Below, piece by piece: positions 1-43,554 of a DNA stretch of 43,554 bases. The stretch lies in the IMG/VR virus record IMGVR_UViG_3300017646_000004, one strand, 5' to 3'. The notes under the pieces are model-generated. The model did no database searches, was not told the origin of the DNA, and saw only the letters and a program-made list of their open reading frames with translations. The translations under genes were made by a program, and so were the position numbers. How positions within the stretch are numbered: the stretch's first letter is position 1; each line of letters opens with the position of its first letter. The DNA is from a virus.

Positions 1-180
1 CTCGCGCGTGCCAACCTCGCGGATGCCAACCTCGCGGGTGCCAACCTCGCGGATGCCTACCTCGCGGGCGCCAACCTCGCGCGTGCCAACCTCGCGCGTG
101 CCAACCTCGCGGGTGCCAACCTCGCGGATGCCTACCTCGCGGATGCCAACCTCGCGGATGCCAACCTCGCGGATGCCAAA
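1..180 (+). repeat. 15-bp tandem repeat array (12 units), 3' part of the pentapeptide minisatellite
   Basis: Units ctcgcgNNNgcc(a/t)ac repeat head to tail from base 1. Variation is limited to the third codon (cgt/gat/ggt/ggc) and aac/tac. Confidence 0.95.
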
Positions 181-519
181 AATCTCACCGACGAGCAGCT
201 CCGCCCCATCATCTCCGACTACTGGATGATCCTCTCTCTGGCCCGGCCCGAGGTGCCTGCGCTTATTCGCGCACTTCGCGATGGCCGCGTGGACGGTTCG
301 ACCTACGAGGGCGAGTGCGCTTGCCTAGTCGGCACGCTGGAGAATGCGGGCGGCGATGGCATACCCCATCGGGCCAGCAGCCCGGCCGAACGCTGGTTCG
401 CCGCGATCCGCAAGGGCGATAAGCCCGGCGATGACAGCGCGGGAGGTTTCGCGGCAGGCAAGGCTCTTGAATGGGCCTTGCGCTATTGTGCCCTCACCGG
501 GATTGGGGTGCCGGCATGA
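1..519 (+). CDS. Pentapeptide-repeat protein, 3' part (5' part at 43102..43554)
   Basis: Frame 1 is open from base 1 to TGA 517-519. It encodes 12 x L-A-[RDG]-A-[NY], then [40 protein letters not shown]... The track ORF 8..229 (MPTSR...) is the wrong frame of the same repeat. Confidence 0.8.
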
Positions 520-1110: not shown

Positions 1111-1295
1111 TGACCGTCCAGCGACTTGGCGTCCCGCTTTCCGAGATCATGGAAAGCGAGGAGATCTACCAGATCAGGCGTTACCTCCAGGGCCGGTATT
1201 CGGTCACTCTGCAGGATGGTCGGCGCGGCATCGGTGGAACCGTTGGTGAGGCCCTGCGCATTGCCAAGGCCAGTGCGGGAGTGCTGGCGGCATGA
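1110..1295 (+). CDS. Hypothetical early protein (61 aa)
   Basis: ATG 1110 shares one base with the upstream TGA (TGATG). This is the internal Met of track ORF 1080..1295. Confidence 0.5.
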   Translation: MTVQRLGVPLSEIMESEEIYQIRRYLQGRYSVTLQDGRRGIGGTVGEALRIAKASAGVLAA

Positions 1296-1786
1296 ACGCG
1301 CCTCTCGAATTGGCGAGCATCAAGCGTATTGCGGAAGCCCTCGCCCCGCTCTGCGAAGATGACGAACAGCTGTTTCACGACATGATCGTGGGCGAGACGA
1401 GCATAGATTGGCTCGTTTCCCGCCTTCACGAACAGGTGGCTCGCGATTGCGAGATGCTCGTGGGTATCAAGGAGCGTGCGGCTGCGCTGTCTGAACGCAA
1501 GTCGCGGATCGAGGCCCGCGTCGAGGCATTCAAGCGCCAGATCGGCATGTGCCTGCGTGCTGCCTCTCTTACCAAGCTGGAACTTCCCGAAGTCACCTAT
1601 TCGGTGCGCGACGGAAAGCCCCAGCTTGTGATCGTCAACCCGGATGCGGTGCCCTCTGAATATCAGAGGATCCGAGCGGAGCCTGACAAGGCGGCAATCA
1701 ACGAAGCTTTTGCGGACACTGAGGTCCTGCCGAACTGGCTGGGCGTCGAACCTGCCCGCGACATTGTCTCAGCCCGAACGAAATAG
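1292..1786 (+). CDS. Siphovirus Gp157-like protein (recombination/replication accessory)
   Basis: 164 aa with a central coiled coil (SERKSRIEARVEAFKRQI), then LELPEVTYSVRDGKPQLVIVNPDAVPSEYQRIRAEPDKAAI. This pattern is typical of the Sipho_Gp157 family, recognised by eye. Confidence 0.6.
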   Translation: MNAPLELASIKRIAEALAPLCEDDEQLFHDMIVGETSIDWLVSRLHEQVARDCEMLVGIKERAAALSERKSRIEARVEAFKRQIGMCLRAASLTKLELPEVTYSVRDGKPQLVIVNPDAVPSEYQRIRAEPDKAAINEAFADTEVLPNWLGVEPARDIVSARTK

Positions 1787-4558: not shown

Positions 4559-4741
4559 ATGACGGCTGACCTCCCTCCCTTCGTCCGCCTGTCCCGTGTG
4601 TGCCAAGCCGCGCAGTCATGGGCCAATGCCGTCCAGTCCGACAGGGACCGGGATATCTCGATAGCACGGCGCAATGACATGCTCCTCAAGCATCTGGACG
4701 AGCTGGAGGAGGCTATCAGGGAAGTGAGGGGGGTGTTGTGA
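4559..4741 (+). CDS. Hypothetical protein (60 aa)
   Basis: Track ORF. Its stop overlaps the GTG of the excisionase-like gene. Confidence 0.45.
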   Translation: MTADLPPFVRLSRVCQAAQSWANAVQSDRDRDISIARRNDMLLKHLDELEEAIREVRGVL

Positions 4742-5025
4742 GCGAGCGCGCGCGCGTCTCCTACGTGATGCACAAGACCGGGCTATCCCGGCGCACGGTG
4801 CAATCGATGGCCGCCAGAGGCCTGATACCGGGCGCGGCGAAGCTGGGTTCGACATGGACGTTCGATAAGTTAAAACTCGCCCGCTGGATAAGGAATCGGG
4901 AAAGCGCGTGCCGGACAACCTCTACGAGCGAAACGGCGTTTTCTATGCCCGCATTCAAGTGGCAGGCAGGGACGTTAGAAGGTCCCTTAAAACAGGCTCT
5001 AAGGCGGAGGCAAAGCGCCGCCTGA
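4738..5025 (+). CDS. xis: Excisionase/AlpA-type HTH DNA-binding protein
   Basis: MHKTGLSRRTVQSMAARGLIPGAAKLGSTWTFDKLKLARWI fits the excisionase-family HTH, and the gene sits immediately upstream of int. The C-terminal tail overlaps the int start, so the true 3' end is uncertain. Confidence 0.6.
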   Translation: MSERARVSYVMHKTGLSRRTVQSMAARGLIPGAAKLGSTWTFDKLKLARWIRNRESACRTTSTSETAFSMPAFKWQAGTLEGPLKQALRRRQSAA

Positions 5026-5966
5026 AAGCCATGCTCGCCCAGCTCTCGCCTTATCACGGGACAGCCCGCCGCAGCGTTACCGACGTGCTCGACGCGGCCT
5101 TGCTCGATGCGAAGGGTCATTTGAAGGAAAAGACGCTGGATCGTTACACGCAATCGGCGCTGATCCTGAACCGTCACTTCACCGGATTCTTCGATGCGAT
5201 AGACCGGCGCGCGGTGCTCGACTTCATAGAGGCGCGCAAGGCGGACGGGGTTTCGATCCGCACGATCAAGAACGACCTTTCGGTGCTTTCTGTCGCGGCG
5301 GAATATGCGATTGAGCATGATCTTGCTGGCACAAATCCCGTCACACAAATCGGCAAGCGATCGCTGCGCTACAAGCCATCGGTTTTCGTCCTTCCGCCGG
5401 ACGCCGATATAGAGCTAGTGCTATCGAGCGTGGCCGGACCGCTGGAGCAGCTTTGCCGCCTCCTGAGGCATACCGGGATGCGCCGGGATGAGGCGGTGAA
5501 TCTGCGCTGGCAGGACGTGGATATGAAGCGCGGAGCCGCCACCCTGCCCATAACAAAAGCAGGCACATCAAGAACGGTCTCGTTGAGCGCGAAGGCCCTG
5601 GAAATCCTCAAGGGCCGCCCGCGCCAGATAGCAACCGATCTGATCTTCACCCGCAACGACGGACAGCCCTATACTGGCGTGTCGCAGGGCTGGCGGGAGG
5701 CAGTCTACAGGGCGCTCAAGAAGCGGCCAAAACTGCAACGATTCCGGCTTCACGATTTGCGGCACATCTACGCAATCGAATATCTGCGCGATGGCGGGAA
5801 CTTGTATGTCCTGCAAAAGCAGCTAGGGCACGGCAGCATCCGGCAGACGGAGTGGTATCTGCAATTTCTGACCCCGGATGAGCAGGAAAAAGTCAAATCG
5901 CAGTCGGCACAAAACCCGGCACAACTGCACCGGTTTACAGTTGCAGGCGGTGCAAAAAATGGCTAA
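4908..5966 (+). CDS. int: Tyrosine recombinase (phage integrase)
   Basis: GTG start. Contains RHTGMRRDEA (Arg I), HDLRHIYA (H-x-x-R) and LGHGSIRQTEWY (His/Tyr nucleophile region). Confidence 0.9.
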   Translation: MPDNLYERNGVFYARIQVAGRDVRRSLKTGSKAEAKRRLKAMLAQLSPYHGTARRSVTDVLDAALLDAKGHLKEKTLDRYTQSALILNRHFTGFFDAIDRRAVLDFIEARKADGVSIRTIKNDLSVLSVAAEYAIEHDLAGTNPVTQIGKRSLRYKPSVFVLPPDADIELVLSSVAGPLEQLCRLLRHTGMRRDEAVNLRWQDVDMKRGAATLPITKAGTSRTVSLSAKALEILKGRPRQIATDLIFTRNDGQPYTGVSQGWREAVYRALKKRPKLQRFRLHDLRHIYAIEYLRDGGNLYVLQKQLGHGSIRQTEWYLQFLTPDEQEKVKSQSAQNPAQLHRFTVAGGAKNG

Positions 5967-5988
5967 TTTCTGCGGTATAGAGCTAAGC

Positions 5989-6027
5989 GGACAGGTGGCC
6001 GAGCGGTTGAAGGCACCGGTCTTGAAA
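5989..6027 (+). other. 5' half of tRNA-Ser(UGA), probable attP core
   Basis: GGACAGGTGGCCGAGCGGTTGAAGGCACCGGTCTTGAAA comprises the acceptor 5' strand, D arm, anticodon-stem 5' strand and loop CTTGAAA. The match stops there: there is no anticodon-stem 3' strand, variable arm or T arm. It lies 23 nt after the int stop. Confidence 0.6.
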
Positions 6028-6219
6028 TTCCCTGCATGGGAAGCGCCGAAACGCCGAAACTCTAGGAAATCTGCCGGTTTTCGGCCACGCAGGACGCGAA
6101 TTTCGCGCATAGCTTACCGGTTCGCGTTGGCACGTAAGTCGGCACACTCGTTTGATGGGCTAGCGTGGGGTTGCCTCCCCGACGCCAGCCCTGACCGCAG
6201 AACCTGTGTTGGAGGTCCT

Positions 6220-6789
6220 ATGGCTGAAAAGGCAACTACTCGAATCCTTCCCTTACTGAAAGGGCGTGAAGGCAAACTGCGCATGATGCGCTTCTGGTCG
6301 AAGGTGGACATTCGCTCTCCCGAGGCGTGCTGGGAATGGCAAGCGAGCTTGAATTCCAATGGCTACGGTCGCTTCAAGATCGCAAGCTACAATATGGTGA
6401 CTGCAAGTCGCGTTGCGCTGATTTCGCATACCGGGCAAGAGCCTGTCGGTTCTCTCGCGCTCCACACCTGCGACAATCGCCGGTGCTGTAATCCTCACCA
6501 TCTGTATTGGGGGACGCATCAGGACAACATGGACGACAAGGTTGCCCGAGGCAGATGCTATGGGGGCGACCAGTCTGGTGTGAAGAACGGGGCCGCGAAG
6601 CTCAACGAAGAGCAATTCGCGTTGGTTGTCCAGCGCCTCAAAGACGGTTGGCCAAACACTCGGATCGCCGCCGATCTCCCGATAAGCCATTCAATGGTGA
6701 GCCTGATCCGGCTCGGGAAATTGTGGCGAAAGGATAGCGAGCGCCTCGGTTGGACGCCCAAGGCGCAGTTCCAGCGAAACGCAGCATAG
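6220..6789 (+). CDS. HNH homing-type endonuclease with C-terminal HTH
   Basis: RBS GGAGG. Contains NSNGYGRF...HTCDNRRCCNPHHLYWGTHQDNMDD (HNH_3-type) and C-terminal RIAADLPISHSMVSLIR. The upstream part of track ORF 5878..6789 reads through the tRNA fragment and is spurious. Confidence 0.8.
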   Translation: MAEKATTRILPLLKGREGKLRMMRFWSKVDIRSPEACWEWQASLNSNGYGRFKIASYNMVTASRVALISHTGQEPVGSLALHTCDNRRCCNPHHLYWGTHQDNMDDKVARGRCYGGDQSGVKNGAAKLNEEQFALVVQRLKDGWPNTRIAADLPISHSMVSLIRLGKLWRKDSERLGWTPKAQFQRNAA

Positions 6790-37526: not shown

Positions 37527-38408
37527 TTATATCGCCATGTGGGCGGTATGGTTTTCGACAGGAGAAAGAGCCGCCGGGTGTCCGATGGCGGAAAGGATCG
37601 CGCGACCAATCAGCTCGGGGATTTGTGGGATTACGGCGTTTCCGAGGGCCCCAGTGCGGTCCACCCGGTCGGGAATCCCATCATCCATTCGACAAATTCC
37701 GGCTTCGGGCGAATCCCAAGCATCGGTTGCCCAAGGATTGTCAGCGTGAGACATCCAGCGCCAAAGGGCGTCCCCAAGGTGCAGTTGGTGTATCCCCGTG
37801 ATTTCCGGGGAGTAGGCAATAATCCAGACGCGCTCGCGCAGATGCGGGGCGCCAAAGATGGCCGCCGGTATGATTTCCCATTCCGCATCGAGCCTGCGCC
37901 GGGCCAGCGCCCCGAGAACTTCTCCCATCCATCGATCAAGCAGCTCTGGGCTGTTCTCCAAGATGACGAAGCGTGGTCGAAGTTCGCCAATAAGGCGGTC
38001 GATTTCGAAGAAGAGGCCGGAACGTTCACCATGCAGGCCAGCGCGCGCACCCGCTGCGCTGATATCCTGGCACGGAAAACCGCCCGTGATGACATCGATC
38101 GCTCCAAGATCACCTCCGGCAAGCTCCCGCACGTCTCGGTGGCAAGGGACGTCTGGCCAGTGTTTCGCAAGGATACGACGGGGGAACTCTTCGATCTCAC
38201 AGAAGGCGACGGTTTCGAAGCCACCGGTTCTCTCCAGTCCAAGCGAAAAGCCGCCGATGCCGGAGAACAGGTCCAGCACCCTGAGCTTGCGGAAGGAAGC
38301 CGCTGGGCCAAGGGGGTCAGCCCGGCGGCAGGTATCGGACGCTGCATCAGGCACGCACGGGCGAGCCGCAGAAGGGCAATCCTTCGACGATGCAGTGAGC
38401 CCGCTCAT
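37527..38408 (-). CDS. DNA (cytosine-5)-methyltransferase
   Basis: Motif I DLFSGIGG, motif IV GGFPCQDIS, ENS, RER and motif X GNAV. Short target-recognition region. Confidence 0.9.
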   Translation of the reverse strand: MSGLTASSKDCPSAARPCVPDAASDTCRRADPLGPAASFRKLRVLDLFSGIGGFSLGLERTGGFETVAFCEIEEFPRRILAKHWPDVPCHRDVRELAGGDLGAIDVITGGFPCQDISAAGARAGLHGERSGLFFEIDRLIGELRPRFVILENSPELLDRWMGEVLGALARRRLDAEWEIIPAAIFGAPHLRERVWIIAYSPEITGIHQLHLGDALWRWMSHADNPWATDAWDSPEAGICRMDDGIPDRVDRTGALGNAVIPQIPELIGRAILSAIGHPAALSPVENHTAHMAI

Positions 38409-38650
38409 GCTGCGTCCTTGGGGAGGTGGGATTCGAGGGAAGACTTCGCCTGCCACGGCTCGACCGCCTCAAGCGTGTCGATCTGCTCCTCGGTCAGGTC
38501 GGAAATGCTGGGATGTTTCCAGCCGGTTCGTCGCAGAATGTGGATCGCAAGCGAACGAGATGGCGAGCGAACGCCGTTCAAAATCATGCTCGCATAGGAC
38601 TGGCTAATGCCGGTCACATACTGGAGTTCGGAAATGGATGGCTTCGACAT
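38405..38650 (-). CDS. Cro-like HTH regulator, first gene of the leftward early operon
   Basis: ISELQYVTGISQSYASMILNGVRSPS is an HTH. The gene is divergent from the repressor gene and has no SD upstream of its ATG. Confidence 0.6.
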   Translation of the reverse strand: MSKPSISELQYVTGISQSYASMILNGVRSPSRSLAIHILRRTGWKHPSISDLTEEQIDTLEAVEPWQAKSSLESHLPKDAA

Positions 38651-38656
38651 GCCGCA

Positions 38657-38738
38657 TATATCACATATCGTGATGTTCGATGCAACAGCCGAATATCACA
38701 GAATGTGTGGCGAAAGCGGTATCACAGTCTGCGATAAT
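38657..38738. promoter_or_regulatory. Immunity switch: three ATCAC-N5-GYGAT-type operators and divergent promoters
   Basis: ATCACATATCGTGAT 38660..38674, ATCACAGAATGTGTG 38695..38709 and ATCACAGTCTGCGAT 38721..38735. Leftward TTGCAT-17-GATATA (38685..38657). Rightward -10 GATAAT 38733..38738. Confidence 0.5.
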
Positions 38739-38744
38739 GCTGGA

Positions 38745-39086
38745 ATGGGCTATCAGGAGAAAAACGGCGGTCTGAACCATCTTCGTGCCTGGCGCGAATA
38801 CCGCAAGCTCACTCAGCAGGAATTGGCTGAGGCGGCCGATACGACCCAGCATCAGATCGCATATCTTGAGAGCGGAGAAAGGGCATTGTCCGCCAAGTGG
38901 CTCCGCCGACTCGCGCCTGCGCTAAGGATCACGCCGGGATTTCTTTTGGATCACGATCCGAACGATCTCACTGATGACATCATAGACATCTGGGCCACAG
39001 CCGATGATCGCCAGAAGATGCAGATAACAACGATCACCAAGGCCATAGTCCAAGGTGACAAAAAGACTGGAACGAATAGCAGCTAG
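38745..39086 (+). CDS. XRE-family HTH repressor (CI analogue, no peptidase domain)
   Basis: LRAWREYRKLTQQELAEAADTTQHQIAYLESGERALSAKWLRRLAPAL is an XRE HTH. The ATG lies 7 nt after GATAAT and has no SD. Confidence 0.7.
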   Translation: MGYQEKNGGLNHLRAWREYRKLTQQELAEAADTTQHQIAYLESGERALSAKWLRRLAPALRITPGFLLDHDPNDLTDDIIDIWATADDRQKMQITTITKAIVQGDKKTGTNSS

Positions 39087-40573: not shown

Positions 40574-41407
40574 CTAGGCGGCCGACCTCGGCAAGGCTCT
40601 CTTGGCTTCACGCTCCGCTAATGCCGCCAGGGCGTTGTTGGCAATTTGCGCGGGCAGTTTCCGCTTGCTCACCTGACTTGCCAGGTAAGAAGGCATTTTA
40701 GTGGGGATATAAATCTCTCTTATCCACCGTCTGAATGTCGGTAGCGAGTCCTCCGGATAGCAGCTTGCCGGTTGGGGGTTTGAAAACGACTGCTGGAAAT
40801 AGTCCGGATAATAGTGATCGAAATATCGACGCGGGCCGAATTGATCCTCTAGGCCAGCATCCTTCCAGTGACGTCCCCAATGGAGGCCAACGCTGATATC
40901 AAGGATCATTTGCGTGCCCGGGGCCACTCCTCGCGAAATGAGGGTCGCGAAGATGTCAGCGATTTCCCGGAACACGCACCAATATCCTTCCGGGACATTA
41001 TCGTAGACAAGTGACACCCTATCCTCGAACTGCCGCCAGATCCGATCCGTGGGATCACGGCCCAGCATCCAGTCATAGACCCATTCGGTGACCTTGACTG
41101 CGAATTCTGGGGAAAGCCATTGAGCCAGGTGAATAGCAACCTGAGGGTGGACCCATGTTCCTCGCTGCTCATTTGCACCAGTTAATATGGATTGCGCCAA
41201 GAGGTCCCTGTGAATCTGCAGGGACCCTTCCAGCGCCGCGAGAAAGGCCTCTGTTGTGTCAAGGCGTCGGTACGAAGACCACTCCCTCCCTGCCGCCCGA
41301 CACATCGAGGTAGCATTGATGTAGCCGTCTTCCGCCCGCTGATGGATCAGACTACCCTGATGGGTGTGAGGGACCAAAGCGAGTTGCTTCTGGGTATCGT
41401 CAACCAC
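40574..41407 (-). CDS. KilA-N domain protein with an uncharacterised C-terminal domain
   Basis: GTG start with RBS GGAG. DGYINATSMCRAAGREWSSYRRLDTTEAFLAAL...GTWVHPQVAIHLAQWLSPEFAVKV is a KilA-N signature. Confidence 0.75.
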   Translation of the reverse strand: MVDDTQKQLALVPHTHQGSLIHQRAEDGYINATSMCRAAGREWSSYRRLDTTEAFLAALEGSLQIHRDLLAQSILTGANEQRGTWVHPQVAIHLAQWLSPEFAVKVTEWVYDWMLGRDPTDRIWRQFEDRVSLVYDNVPEGYWCVFREIADIFATLISRGVAPGTQMILDISVGLHWGRHWKDAGLEDQFGPRRYFDHYYPDYFQQSFSNPQPASCYPEDSLPTFRRWIREIYIPTKMPSYLASQVSKRKLPAQIANNALAALAEREAKRALPRSAA

Positions 41408-42029: not shown

Positions 42030-42425
42030 CTACTTCAGGCGCTTGCGGAAGTGATCGGTGAGGACGCCGATAACGAGACCACCGGTGAGGAGCGTGCGCA
42101 GGTCGCGGAGCTGAAGCTCGGAGAGCCAGTGCCAGGTGGTCGGTGTCAGCAAATGAAACAGCCAGAACAGCCCAATTAGCAACAAACTGCCCGACATCAC
42201 CCAAAGCGCAATCAGCGCCAAGCATTCGAAATGCCGCTTGAAACGCTGATCGCGATGGTGTTCCGCCCGAGCCGCCTCGCGCGCCAGCTCATCTCTGGAT
42301 TTCCCGCTGGCGAATTGCTCGGATTCTTGAGCTGCCTTGGAATCCCCACTCGCCGCAGCCTCCGCTTCGCTCGGGCTGGCGACAACGGGATTATCCTCCT
42401 CCTCAGGCAGTGCGTTGCTCCGCAA
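42030..42425 (-). CDS. Two-TM membrane protein with an acidic N-terminal region (toxin candidate)
   Basis: TMs CLALIALWVMSGSLLLIGLFWLF and LLTGGLVIGVL. No in-frame ATG lies before the first TM, so a TTG or other non-ATG start is implied. A GAGGAGGAGGA tract sits at the upstream stop. Confidence 0.5.
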   Translation of the reverse strand: MRSNALPEEEDNPVVASPSEAEAAASGDSKAAQESEQFASGKSRDELAREAARAEHHRDQRFKRHFECLALIALWVMSGSLLLIGLFWLFHLLTPTTWHWLSELQLRDLRTLLTGGLVIGVLTDHFRKRLK

Positions 42426-42864
42426 GCCGCTTGTAGTGATCTTCGATCAGGTCGATCGGGATGATCTTTCCGAAAGATCCAGGCTCATAGGTGAGCTCCC
42501 AAGGCGTCCCGCTTGCGTGCGTGATACGAGAAAGTTCCATCCCCGTGAACTTCCGATAGGCCTGATAGACCTGATCGATCACCGCCTTTTCCTGATCGTC
42601 CAACTTGCCGCGATCGAGAAAGTTGCCAACCCGCTTGGAAACCGGCGCTCCCCGATACTGCCGGACATGGCTATAGAGAGCCGGGATCACAGGGCCATAC
42701 TGCCAAGCCTCAACCCGGTCGTTGAACAGCGGGCGGCTATGCAGACCCAGCATCCAGCCATGGGCAATATAGGTCAGCTTCAACAGCTGCATCGGGGTCA
42801 ACGGGTCGCCCGCTTCCTCTGCCAGCTCCAGGAAGCGGTTGGCGACGGAAATGCTAGTAGCCAT
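42403..42864 (-). CDS. Panacea/DUF4065 (GepA/SocA-like) antitoxin-domain protein
   Basis: RBS GGAG. ISVANRFLELAEEAGDPLTPMQLLKLTYIAHGWMLGLHSRPLFNDRVEAWQYGPVIPALY matches the DUF4065 core (LQKLLYYAQGW...FEAWQYGPV). Confidence 0.8.
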   Translation of the reverse strand: MATSISVANRFLELAEEAGDPLTPMQLLKLTYIAHGWMLGLHSRPLFNDRVEAWQYGPVIPALYSHVRQYRGAPVSKRVGNFLDRGKLDDQEKAVIDQVYQAYRKFTGMELSRITHASGTPWELTYEPGSFGKIIPIDLIEDHYKRLAEQRTA

Positions 42865-42996: not shown

Positions 42997-43047
42997 AATC
43001 ACAATACGTGATTTTATGGATTGACGCGATCATCACAATATGTGATT
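42997..43047. promoter_or_regulatory. Second operator locus: two perfect ATCAC-N5-GTGAT palindromes with divergent promoters
   Basis: ATCACAATACGTGAT 42998..43012 and ATCACAATATGTGAT 43032..43046. Minus-strand TTGTGA-16-TAAAAT (43038..43011). Plus-strand TTGACG at 43021..43026. Confidence 0.5.
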
Positions 43048-43101: not shown

Positions 43102-43554
43102 ATGGCCGAGACCGGCACCACGATTGAGCAGTTCCCCGTCCGCGACCGCTGGACCGGTGAAGTCAAGTTCACCGCTGAGATCGCCGTAACGCCCGACATG
43201 ACGCCAGCGATCAAGCTGGGGCTGGCAGTGAAGTGGGGGGTCAAGGCGCGTGCCAACCTCGCGGATGCCAACCTCGCGGATGCCAACCTCGCGGGTGCCA
43301 ACCTCGCGGATGCCAACCTCGCGGGTGCCAACCTCGCGGATGCCTACCTCGCGGGCGCCAACCTCGCGGATGCCAACCTCGCGGATGCCAACCTCGCGCG
43401 TGCCAACCTCGCGGATGCCTACCTCGCGGGCGCCAACCTCGCGGATGCCAACCTCGCGGATGCCAACCTCGCGGATGCCTACCTCGCGGGCGCCAACCTC
43501 GCGGATGCCAACCTCGCGGATGCCAACCTCGCGCGTGCCAACCTCGCGGATGCC
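43102..43554 (+). CDS. Pentapeptide-repeat protein, 5' part (continues at 1..519)
   Basis: [57 protein letters not shown], then A-N-L-A-[DGR] units in frame 1 to the window end. The track shows only a wrong-strand ORF here. Confidence 0.8.
43243..43554 (+). repeat. 15-bp tandem repeat array (about 21 units), 5' part of the pentapeptide minisatellite
   Basis: The same ctcgcgNNNgcc(a/t)ac unit as at 1..180, running to the last base of the window. Confidence 0.95.

What the first reader, a model, noticed from the sequence alone, without database searches (positions are those of the whole stretch)
43102..43554. Hyper-regular pentapeptide-repeat protein as the first gene of an operator-controlled early operon
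Joined across the window ends, the gene encodes about 314 aa. About 31 consecutive A-N-L-A-[DGR] pentapeptides are flanked by unique N- and C-terminal domains.

Unlike typical pentapeptide proteins, the repeats are nearly identical at the DNA level, forming a 15-bp minisatellite. This implies recent expansion or homogenisation and probable length variation.

The gene sits directly behind two perfect operator palindromes, at the head of the operon that ends in xis-int. That is the position where phages place host-takeover or anti-defence genes. Known pentapeptide proteins such as Qnr and MfpA act as DNA mimics on gyrase. A DNA-mimic anti-restriction or gyrase-modulating role is therefore a reasonable but untested idea.
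Basis: partly seen in the sequence, partly recalled or inferred. Interest (0 to 1): 0.7.

Follow-up and report, generated by a model that had tools for sequence, protein, structure and literature searches.

The report
Phage pentapeptide-repeat protein with expandable array
The first gene of a temperate phage's early operon encodes a rod-like repeat protein whose 15-base repeat count changes quickly between relatives; it ends in a conserved domain of unknown function, and it is not a Qnr/MfpA-type gyrase protector.

Summary
The gene is real. It starts at ATG 43102 and runs off the window end. It resumes at base 1 in the same frame and stops at 517-519. The product has three parts: a ~50-aa N-terminal domain, a run of A-[NY]-L-A-[DGR] pentapeptides encoded by a 15-bp tandem array with only 5 unit types, and a 114-aa C-terminal domain.

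The count of "about 31" repeats rests on a 27-nt end overlap inside the array. Six independent contigs of the same phage all stop at or in the array. The outer 3 and 9 units are confirmed independently; the interior and the total are not.

The protein belongs to a large uncharacterised family of phage and prophage early genes, with 883 cluster representatives. Family members share both terminal domains and carry 2-35 repeats. Alleles with identical flanks differ in repeat number, and other members have ~25-copy arrays of similar DNA regularity.

The C-domain has no Pfam, PHROG, NCBIfam or PDB match. Scores against the Qnr and MfpA models lie far below their cut-offs. Array charge and length are not conserved across the family, so DNA mimicry is unlikely to be the family's function.

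Best reading: a variable-length beta-helix rod that carries a conserved C-terminal working domain. It is expressed early under operator control, and its target is unknown.

The parts
43102..43554 (+). 5' part of the gene: start codon, N-terminal domain (aa 1-50, 43102-43251) and repeat units 1-20 plus the first codon of unit 21
   Evidence: The N-domain is conserved in relatives and modelled as a beta-hairpin plus helix at pLDDT ~90.
1..519 (+). 3' part of the same gene: remaining repeat units (1-174, of which 1-27 duplicate the window's last 27 bases), C-terminal domain (175-516) and stop codon (517-519)
   Evidence: The C-domain family was found. Invariant residues are G, DGS.Y, C.CLVG, PAE.WF, I..GD.P and W.
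43251..43554 (+). 15-bp tandem array, 5' block (20.3 copies, 89% matches)
   Evidence: TRF; unit table. Only the first 3 units are confirmed by other assemblies.
1..179 (+). 15-bp tandem array, 3' block (11.9 copies, 91% matches)
   Evidence: TRF. The last 9 units are confirmed by ENA contig k141_251022, which starts at window 40.
42998..43012 (.). Operator-like inverted repeat 1, ATCACAATACGTGAT, just upstream of a TTGACGC -35-like hexamer at 43021
   Evidence: sequence.
43032..43046 (.). Operator-like inverted repeat 2, ATCACAATATGTGAT. It overlaps the spacer/-10 region of the presumed rightward promoter and a leftward promoter-like site.
38660..38674 (.). Third perfect ATCAC-N5-GTGAT site, with a 1-mismatch copy at 38721-38735, upstream of the HTH regulator gene
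   Evidence: This is the only other perfect match in the window.
38745..39086 (+). XRE-family HTH regulator, candidate binder of the operators (inferred)
   Evidence: Pfam HTH_31 and HTH_3; PHROG transcriptional regulator/repressor.
42403..42864 (-). Divergently transcribed neighbour: SocA/Panacea-domain protein
   Evidence: Pfam PF13274, E 4e-20; NCBIfam SocA_antitoxin, below its cut-off.
1292..1786 (+). Downstream operon member: Mu Gam-like / Sipho_Gp157 protein
4738..5025 (+). Downstream operon member: HTH_17 excisionase-like ORF
4908..5966 (+). Downstream operon member: tyrosine integrase
   Evidence: PHROG 1, E 2e-53.

Best explanation
This is the first gene of an operator-controlled early operon in a ~43.5-kb temperate phage. 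The host is probably an alphaproteobacterium.

The protein has three modules:
1. A ~50-aa alpha/beta N-terminal cap.
2. A pentapeptide-repeat rod, a right-handed four-sided beta-helix with four units per coil. It is encoded by an in-frame 15-bp tandem array.
3. A ~114-aa helical C-terminal domain of unknown function, with an invariant DGS.Y...C.CLVGT...PAE.WF...GD.P signature.

The two terminal domains define a large, uncharacterised family of phage and prophage early genes.

The array behaves as a variable-number tandem repeat. Slippage or unequal recombination adds and removes whole 15-bp units. The frame is always kept. Units are homogenised within a lineage and differ between lineages. The window carries a strongly expanded allele of at least ~30 units. 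The family median is ~7.

Inferred mechanism: the conserved C-terminal domain is the working part, binding or acting on a host or phage partner early in infection or induction. The beta-helix acts as a rigid spacer or scaffold whose length is tolerated or tuned.

The protein is not a Qnr/MfpA-type topoisomerase protector. Its target is unknown.
For: **Shown**
- Gene structure and array.
- PRP identity.
- Family of 296 close hits and 883 cluster representatives sharing the C-domain. Most also share the N-domain.
- Repeat number is 2-30 in 184 database proteins and 2-35 in 54 genomes.
- Alleles with identical flanks differ in unit number.
- Arrays of about 25 copies at 92-93% DNA identity occur in a 5.2-Mb chromosome contig and in another metagenome contig.
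- Unit DNA differs between lineages, for example CTC against CTG for Leu, while A-[DN]-L-x-x is kept. This points to constraint at the protein level.
- Within the window, variation is confined to the outward-facing positions i-1 and i+2.
- The AlphaFold model of relative P0007 has pLDDT 92 and pTM 0.85. It shows a cap, a beta-helix with a strand every 5 residues, and a helical domain. Its array superposes on MfpA, QnrB1, Np275 and AlbG at 1-2 A over 40-50 residues.
- In other members the same C-domain is fused to other repeat types, including hexapeptide-like, decapeptide and other repeats. The C-domain is the constant module.
- Relatives sit in phage early regions near repressors, HIRAN, recombination genes and integrase.
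- Three perfect operator sites occur only in front of this gene and in front of an HTH regulator gene.

**Inferred**
- The C-domain is the working part and the rod is a spacer.
- The gene is expressed early and repressed in the lysogen.
Against: - No function is known for any family member, and no partner gene is conserved next to it.
- The C-domain has no match in Pfam, PHROGs, NCBIfam, PDB sequences or PDB folds. Its role as the working part is argued from conservation alone.
- The AlphaFold model of the window protein itself puts residues 78-177 in long helices at pLDDT 50-80. The beta-helix for the expanded ANLAD stretch therefore rests on the Pfam profile and on relatives.
- The exact array length is unverified.
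- The array's net negative charge (-14) would also fit a function residing in the rod itself.
Confidence: 0.55

Rival explanations
1. DNA-mimic reading. The acidic beta-helix imitates B-DNA. It either binds DNA gyrase as Qnr/MfpA do, or it soaks up restriction or other DNA-targeting defence enzymes as Ocr/ArdA do.
For: - The window's array has 18 Asp against 4 Arg, -0.47 charge per unit. The whole-protein pI is 4.43.
- The beta-helix of a relative superposes locally on MfpA, QnrB1 and AlbG.
- The gene is first in an early operon that also carries a Gam-like end-protection gene. Phages often place anti-defence genes in such positions (general knowledge).
Against: - Qnr and MfpA models score 50 and 30 bits against cut-offs of 240 and 360.
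- There is no Ocr- or ArdA-like fold hit.
- Family members with the same end domains have 2-4 units, less than one coil. Array charge runs from -14 to +4, with a median of -0.22 per unit.
- The same C-domain occurs on non-PRP repeats.
- Both ends of the rod are capped by globular domains rather than a dimerisation helix.
- No paper in the searched library assigns such a role to a phage PRP.
Confidence: 0.12
2. The array length, and perhaps its interior order, is an assembly product. The true gene has a different number of units, and the circular join at the 27-nt overlap is not the real junction.
For: - Both window ends lie in the array. The only end overlap is 27 nt of repeat.
- Six independent contigs break at or in the array.
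- No JGI or IMG/VR contig enters the array.
- A 94-nt exact internal repeat at a 9-unit offset could be a real block duplication or a loop traversed twice.
Against: - The array is too long or too variable for short-read assemblers, which argues against a short true array.
- The outer 3 and 9 units are reproduced exactly by other assemblies.
- Relatives in long contigs, including assemblies labelled as nanopore, carry 21-35 units.
- Any whole number of units keeps the frame, so the ORF is not at risk.
Confidence: 0.3
3. Array-length variation is adaptive rather than merely tolerated. The locus acts as a contingency locus, and fast changes in rod length or surface let the phage escape a host sensor or retune binding to a variable host target.
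For: - Copy number changes faster than point substitution in the flanks.
- Independent large expansions with different unit types occur in many lineages and phyla.
- Substitutions are confined to surface positions.
- The solenoid type in front of the same C-domain has been swapped.
Against: - No link to any defence system was found. PADLOC gave no hit.
- Neutral slippage in a tolerant spacer explains the same pattern.
- There are no population data for this phage.
Confidence: 0.2
4. The repeat acts at the DNA level, for example as iterons of an origin, as a recombination hot spot or as protein-binding sites. Its coding capacity would then be incidental.
For: Thirty near-identical 15-bp units are the most repetitive DNA in the window. 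All three forward frames are open across the array.
Against: - The conserved N- and C-domains lie in the same frame on both sides.
- Relatives keep the pentapeptide pattern while the unit DNA differs.
- Short-array relatives have only 2-4 units.
- No replication initiator was identified next to the array.
Confidence: 0.04

Closest known systems
MfpA / Qnr / AlbG / McbG topoisomerase-interacting pentapeptide-repeat proteins
   Same: Both have tandem A(D/N)LXX repeats. The beta-helix of a family member superposes locally at 1-2 A over 40-50 residues. The window's array is acidic.
   Different: - Scores lie far below the family cut-offs.
- This protein adds a conserved N-terminal cap and a 114-aa C-terminal domain instead of a dimerisation helix.
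- It has no Qnr loops.
- Its repeats are near-identical and variable in number. Qnr/MfpA have degenerate repeats of fixed length.
- Relatives can have fewer than 4 units.
Cyanobacterial regular PRPs (Np275/Np276, Rfr32, Alr5209, HetL) and the designed 'beta1' solenoids
   Same: They are highly regular pentapeptide arrays. They give the best sequence matches in the PDB and in NCBIfam (HetL 113 bits, Alr5209 72 bits).
   Different: All scores are below the family cut-offs. These proteins lack the N- and C-terminal domains and are cellular proteins, not phage early genes.
PRP-plus-effector-domain proteins such as PipB2/PipB and NleL/SopA of enterobacterial type III secretion
   Same: A pentapeptide beta-helix is joined to a separate functional domain. 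They give weak NCBIfam hits through the repeats.
   Different: The terminal domains are unrelated, and the biology is unrelated (secreted effectors of animal pathogens). Only the repeats match.
Unannotated phage pentapeptide proteins (PHROGs 7713, 31265, 31567; BFVD entries from uncultured Caudovirales)
   Same: They are phage-encoded. Some share the N-terminal cap plus repeats.
   Different: None has a known function. The PHROG models do not cover the C-terminal domain: a C-domain query gave no PHROG hit.
Ocr / ArdA DNA-mimic anti-restriction proteins
   Same: They are acidic, elongated proteins made early by mobile elements.
   Different: They have different folds, helical bundles or other non-solenoid folds. 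No sequence or fold match was found here.

Membership tests
Pentapeptide-repeat proteins (Pfam PF00805) | Tandem A(D/N)LXX units scoring above the Pfam gathering threshold | tested here: met
   103.2 bits against a cut-off of 20.2, E 4.8e-30. PF13599 and PF13576 are also above their cut-offs.
Pentapeptide-repeat proteins (Pfam PF00805) | Right-handed quadrilateral beta-helix fold | tested here: inconclusive
   In the window protein the expanded middle is modelled as helices at pLDDT 50-80, where the alignment has no cover. Flanking repeats show a beta-bridge pattern. Relative P0007 gives a confident beta-helix (pLDDT 92) that matches MfpA, Qnr and Np275.
Qnr / MfpA topoisomerase-protecting PRPs | Score at or above the curated NCBIfam family cut-off | tested here: not met
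   Qnr 50.2 against 240; QnrA, B and S 32-49 against 450-460; MfpA 30.3 against 360.
Qnr / MfpA topoisomerase-protecting PRPs | About 180-220 aa made almost wholly of beta-helix coils, ending in a short dimerisation helix, with no further domains | tested here: not met
   A 50-aa N-terminal domain and a 114-aa helical C-terminal domain are conserved across the family.
Qnr / MfpA topoisomerase-protecting PRPs | Conserved anionic, DNA-sized surface | tested here: inconclusive
   The window array has net charge -14. Relatives range from -14 to +4 and from 2 to 35 units.
Qnr / MfpA topoisomerase-protecting PRPs | Binds gyrase or topoisomerase IV and alters its activity or its drug sensitivity | not testable with these tools
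   Needs supercoiling and cleavage assays.
DNA-mimic anti-restriction proteins (Ocr, ArdA) | Sequence or fold similarity to Ocr or ArdA | tested here: not met
   No such match in the PDB fold searches or in Pfam.
DNA-mimic anti-restriction proteins (Ocr, ArdA) | Alleviates restriction or BREX in vivo | not testable with these tools
   Needs plating assays.
Unnamed phage family: N-cap + repeat array + C-terminal 'DGS.Y..C.CLVGT' domain | C-terminal domain with invariant G, DGS.Y, C.C, LVG, PAE.WF, I..GD.P and W | tested here: met
   77% identity to the best hit, E 7e-52. All invariant columns are present in the window protein. 883 representatives at E<=1e-3.
Unnamed phage family: N-cap + repeat array + C-terminal 'DGS.Y..C.CLVGT' domain | N-terminal beta-hairpin-plus-helix domain (..RW.G.VQFTAEI...D....KLGLAVKWA) | tested here: met
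   Alignments A1 and A2; models.
Unnamed phage family: N-cap + repeat array + C-terminal 'DGS.Y..C.CLVGT' domain | Location in a phage or prophage early region | tested here: met
   Window; relatives L001, L008, L009 and L010.
Coding variable-number tandem repeat (minisatellite) | Head-to-tail near-identical units, in frame | tested here: met
   15-bp period, 89-91% matches, 5 unit types.
Coding variable-number tandem repeat (minisatellite) | Copy-number differences between otherwise identical alleles | tested here: inconclusive
   Not measurable for this phage, because every assembly breaks in the array. Shown in relatives: 20 pairs with >=93% identical flanks differ in unit number, several of them with 100% identical flanks.

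The most novel reading that the evidence does not exclude
A widespread, undescribed class of phage early proteins couples one conserved C-terminal working domain to a hypermutable beta-solenoid array. The arrays run from 2 to 35+ units and are sometimes swapped for a different solenoid type. The array would be a phage-borne contingency locus, whose rapid length and surface changes are selected in an arms race with a host sensor or a variable host target.
Probability: 0.2. Interest if true: 0.75.

Novelty: new variant of a known kind. Interest (0 to 1): 0.45.

Why it matters
Pentapeptide-repeat proteins are common in phages, yet I found no phage PRP with an assigned function in the searched literature.

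This family offers a handle on the problem:
- a conserved C-terminal domain with no known relative;
- a natural length series of the rod, from 2 to 35 units;
- a consistent early-gene location.

If the C-domain's partner were found, the length series would show directly whether the beta-helix is a spacer, a ruler or a binding surface.

There is also a practical point. These arrays systematically break short-read assemblies. Contigs of this phage and 8 of 54 related genome loci end in them. As a result, the genes are under-represented or truncated in databases.

For the original hypothesis, the result is mostly negative. Placing this gene with Qnr/MfpA or calling it a DNA mimic is not justified by sequence or by family comparison.

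Tried and rejected
- **Other assemblies.** I looked for a contig that crosses the array. Exact-protein look-ups of both neighbouring genes found six contigs, and all break at the array. Exact DNA patterns at both array borders found nothing in IMG/VR or JGI metagenomes. A look-up of the window's partial product found nothing.\n- **Related phages.** A search in the INPHARED phage collection matched only the repeat itself in unrelated PRP genes.\n- **C-domain identity.** I searched Pfam, PHROGs, NCBIfam, PADLOC, PDB sequences (single sequence and profile) and PDB and BFVD folds. Nothing matched beyond the repeats. DUF6197 hit 2 of 77 family members at E 0.02. I noted this but did not rely on it.\n- **Conserved partner gene.** No homologous downstream gene is shared among 56 loci.\n- **Larger end overlap.** I tested whether the two array blocks are one block counted twice. 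No overlap other than 27 nt exists at <=5% mismatch.\n- **Literature.** Searches for a phage PRP function found nothing relevant.\n- **AlphaFold on the full 314-aa protein.** The expanded region came out as low-confidence helices, so it is uninformative there. A Foldseek search with that model gave only noise.

Full report
**1. What is in the sequence**

An ORF starts at ATG 43102, 7-10 nt after a GGAG, and runs off the window's 3' end. The window's first bases continue the same reading frame to a TGA at 517-519.

TRF reports a 15-bp array of 20.3 copies at 43251-43554 (89% matches). It reports 11.9 copies at 1-179 (91% matches).

The first 27 and last 27 bases of the window are identical, and this is the only end overlap at <=5% mismatch. 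Removing the overlap gives a 314-aa product. It has 30 clean units, A-[NY]-L-A-[DGR], followed by a degenerate A-K-N-L-T. A plain join gives 323 aa with an irregular junction.

Only five unit sequences occur, and 17 of 30 are GCCAACCTCGCGGAT. Variation is confined to the first base of codon 2 (Asn/Tyr) and to codon 5 (GAT, GGT, GGC or CGT). These are the outward-facing positions i-1 and i+2 of the pentapeptide. Pfam PF00805 matches at E 4.8e-30.

**2. How far the array length can be trusted**

Exact-protein look-ups of the two neighbouring genes found six contigs of the same phage from five samples: ENA MEGAHIT, Logan and JGI assemblies. All are 100% identical to the window where they overlap. 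Every one stops at or in the array:
- four end at 43294, 43280, 43229 and 43228;
- two begin at 40 and 178.

The 43,255-bp ENA contig equals window 40-43294. It also starts and ends in the array.

The first 3 and last 9 units are therefore independently reproduced. The interior and the total are supported by this window alone. No IMG/VR or JGI contig crosses either array border.

The 27-nt overlap lies inside the repeat. By my estimate it could arise by chance with probability of about 0.1-0.2, given the unit frequencies. The array has at least 20 units attached to the N-domain and 12 attached to the C-domain. The sum is 30 if the overlap is real and more if sequence is missing.

A 94-nt exact internal repeat at a 9-unit offset is either a block duplication or an assembly loop. 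Any whole number of units keeps the frame, so the ORF itself is not in doubt.

**3. The genomic setting**

The window is a temperate phage genome with GC of about 0.60.

Downstream on the + strand lie:
- small ORFs;
- a Mu Gam-like/Sipho_Gp157 gene (1292-1786);
- a NinB homologue;
- an HTH_17 excisionase-like ORF (4738-5025);
- a tyrosine integrase (4908-5966);
- an HNH endonuclease ORF.

Upstream, on the opposite strand, lie:
- a SocA/Panacea-domain gene (42403-42864);
- two small ORFs;
- a BstA homologue (40574-41407).

The 237-bp intergenic region holds two copies of ATCAC-N5-GTGAT, at 42998 and 43032. They flank and overlap a TTGACGC -35-like element and leftward promoter-like sites.

The only other perfect copy in the window is at 38660, with a 1-mismatch copy at 38721. 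It lies just upstream of an XRE-family HTH gene (38745-39086). For the 16-nt motif, 5 matches at <=3 mismatches were found against 0.23 expected.

It is a reasonable inference that this regulator controls both promoters, but this is untested. 'First gene of an operator-controlled early operon' is therefore supported for this phage.

**4. What the protein is**

A search with the 115-aa C-terminal part found 296 relatives. A full HMMER scan found 883 cluster representatives at E<=1e-3.

Most are 170-200 aa and share three parts:
- the N-terminal domain (..RW.G.VQFTAEI...D....KLGLAVKWA);
- a pentapeptide array;
- the C-terminal domain, with invariant G, DGS.Y, C.CLVG, PAE.WF, I..GD.P and W.

Many sit on 35-45 kb contigs or in prophage early regions. 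Their neighbours include repressors, HIRAN, recombination genes, methylases and integrase. They are not always the first gene.

In GTDB genomes the family occurs in sphingomonads, Methylobacterium, Bosea, Azospirillum, Burkholderiales and several other phyla.

No neighbouring gene is conserved with it.

**5. The array is a variable-number repeat across the family**

Unit number ranges from 2 to 30 in 184 database proteins. The median is about 7, and 15 proteins have >=20 units. The range is 2 to 35 in 54 genome loci.

Twenty pairs with >=93% identical flanks differ in unit number. Several of these pairs have 100% identical flanks, for example 4 against 8 against 9 units, or 8 against 6. Those arrays are short enough to lie within single reads.

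Other members carry arrays as homogeneous as the window's:
- 25.3 copies at 92% in a 5.2-Mb chromosome contig;
- 25.6 copies at 93% in a JGI contig.

Their unit DNA differs from the window's (TCGGGGGCCAACCTG and TGCCGACCTGCGCGG), while the A-[DN]-L-x-x pattern is kept. This is concerted evolution under protein-level constraint.

Eight of the 54 genome loci begin at a contig edge right before the C-domain. One scaffold has a gap inside its array. Such arrays regularly break assemblies.

The window's allele is therefore a strongly expanded member of the family, not a unique oddity.

**6. Structure**

With a 78-sequence alignment, AlphaFold modelled the window protein with confident end domains (pLDDT about 90-97). 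It placed residues 78-177, which have no alignment cover, in long helices at pLDDT 50-80. This is not a reliable result. A Foldseek search with this model gave only noise.

Relative P0007 has 10 units and full alignment cover. Its model has pLDDT 92.4 and pTM 0.85. It shows a beta-hairpin plus helix, a strand or bridge every five residues through the array, and a five-helix C-domain with a small hairpin carrying DGS.Y..C.C.

The array of that model superposes on MfpA, QnrB1, AlbG and Np275 at 1-2 A over 40-50 residues. The C-domain matched nothing in the PDB. BFVD returned only unannotated phage PRPs. Pfam, PHROGs and NCBIfam have no model for the C-domain.

**7. How it most likely works**

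Shown:
- the three-module architecture;
- the rapid in-frame gain and loss of units;
- the constancy of the end domains;
- fusion of the same C-domain to other repeat types, including hexapeptide-like GNARV., decapeptide and other repeats.

Inferred: the C-domain is the working part, a binding or catalytic module with two invariant cysteines plus Asp, Glu and Tyr. The beta-helix is a rigid rod of about 4.8 A per four units, from the established geometry of PRPs. Its length is tolerated or tuned. The protein is made early, under repressor control, as an accessory host-interaction factor. The target is unknown.

**8. The DNA-mimic/gyrase idea**

For the idea:
- the window's array is acidic, with 18 Asp against 4 Arg, and the protein's pI is 4.43;
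- the gene sits where phages often keep anti-defence genes.

Against the idea:
- Qnr and MfpA models score 50 and 30 bits against cut-offs of 240 and 360;
- both rod ends carry globular domains rather than a dimerisation helix;
- relatives with the same end domains have less than one coil, or neutral to basic arrays, with charge from -14 to +4;
- no literature in the searched library supports the idea.

I give the idea about 0.12 for this allele. It is not a member of those families. A DNA-like action of this particular expanded rod remains testable.

**9. Verdict**

The evolutionary inference of expansion and length variation is right and is now documented in relatives. The functional analogy is not supported.

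The gene is an expanded member of a large, uncharacterised family of phage early genes. I rate it a new variant of a known kind, with moderate interest of 0.45. The more novel possibility is that the array is a selected contingency locus. It is not excluded, and I put it at about 0.2.

Noticed in passing
window 40574-41407 (-): Homologue of the prophage-encoded BstA abortive-infection protein, with KilA-N plus BstA_C domains. PHROG 6287 matches at E 1e-63 and PADLOC BstA at E 2e-54.
   Followed up: partly
window 42403-42864 (-) and 42030-42425 (-): A SocA/Panacea-domain protein (antitoxin-like) is followed by an overlapping 131-aa ORF with no family match. This may be a PanA-type toxin-antitoxin pair, transcribed divergently from the PRP operon.
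   Followed up: partly
window 37858-38607 (+) and 38745-39086 (+): A cytosine-5 DNA methylase gene (PF00145 in the identical ENA contig) lies directly before the HTH regulator whose upstream region carries the operator motif. The listed ORF start at 38607 probably overcalls the HTH gene, since the operator sites lie inside it.
   Followed up: partly
window 5878-6789 (+): An HNH endonuclease ORF overlaps the 3' end of the integrase gene by about 90 nt in another frame.
   Followed up: no
window 1-27 and 43528-43554: There is an exact 27-nt terminal overlap, which fits none of the assemblers' usual k-mer sizes that I know of. It lies wholly in the repeat, so it is weak evidence for the exact circular junction.
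   Followed up: yes
L056, L063 (hexapeptide-like GNARV./GDAWV. repeats); L062, P0126 (decapeptide ..SSPRIET.); P0104, P0109, L061 (other repeats): The same C-terminal domain is fused to entirely different tandem-repeat arrays in other genomes. The repeat module appears to be exchangeable.
   Followed up: partly
L045 (Sphingomonas yabuuchiae scaffold) and L020, L026, L029, L039, L048, L053, L054, L055: Relatives' arrays coincide with scaffold gaps or contig ends. This is a systematic assembly blind spot for the gene family.
   Followed up: partly
window protein residues 78-177 (model m48b91f1689bf): AlphaFold turns the Ala/Leu-rich ANLAD array into long helices where the alignment has gaps. A relative with alignment cover gives a beta-helix. 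Structure predictions of expanded repeats should be read with caution.
   Followed up: yes
Alignment A2 members: Two of 77 family members give a weak Pfam hit to DUF6197 (E 0.02). This could be a distant relative of the C-terminal domain.
   Followed up: no
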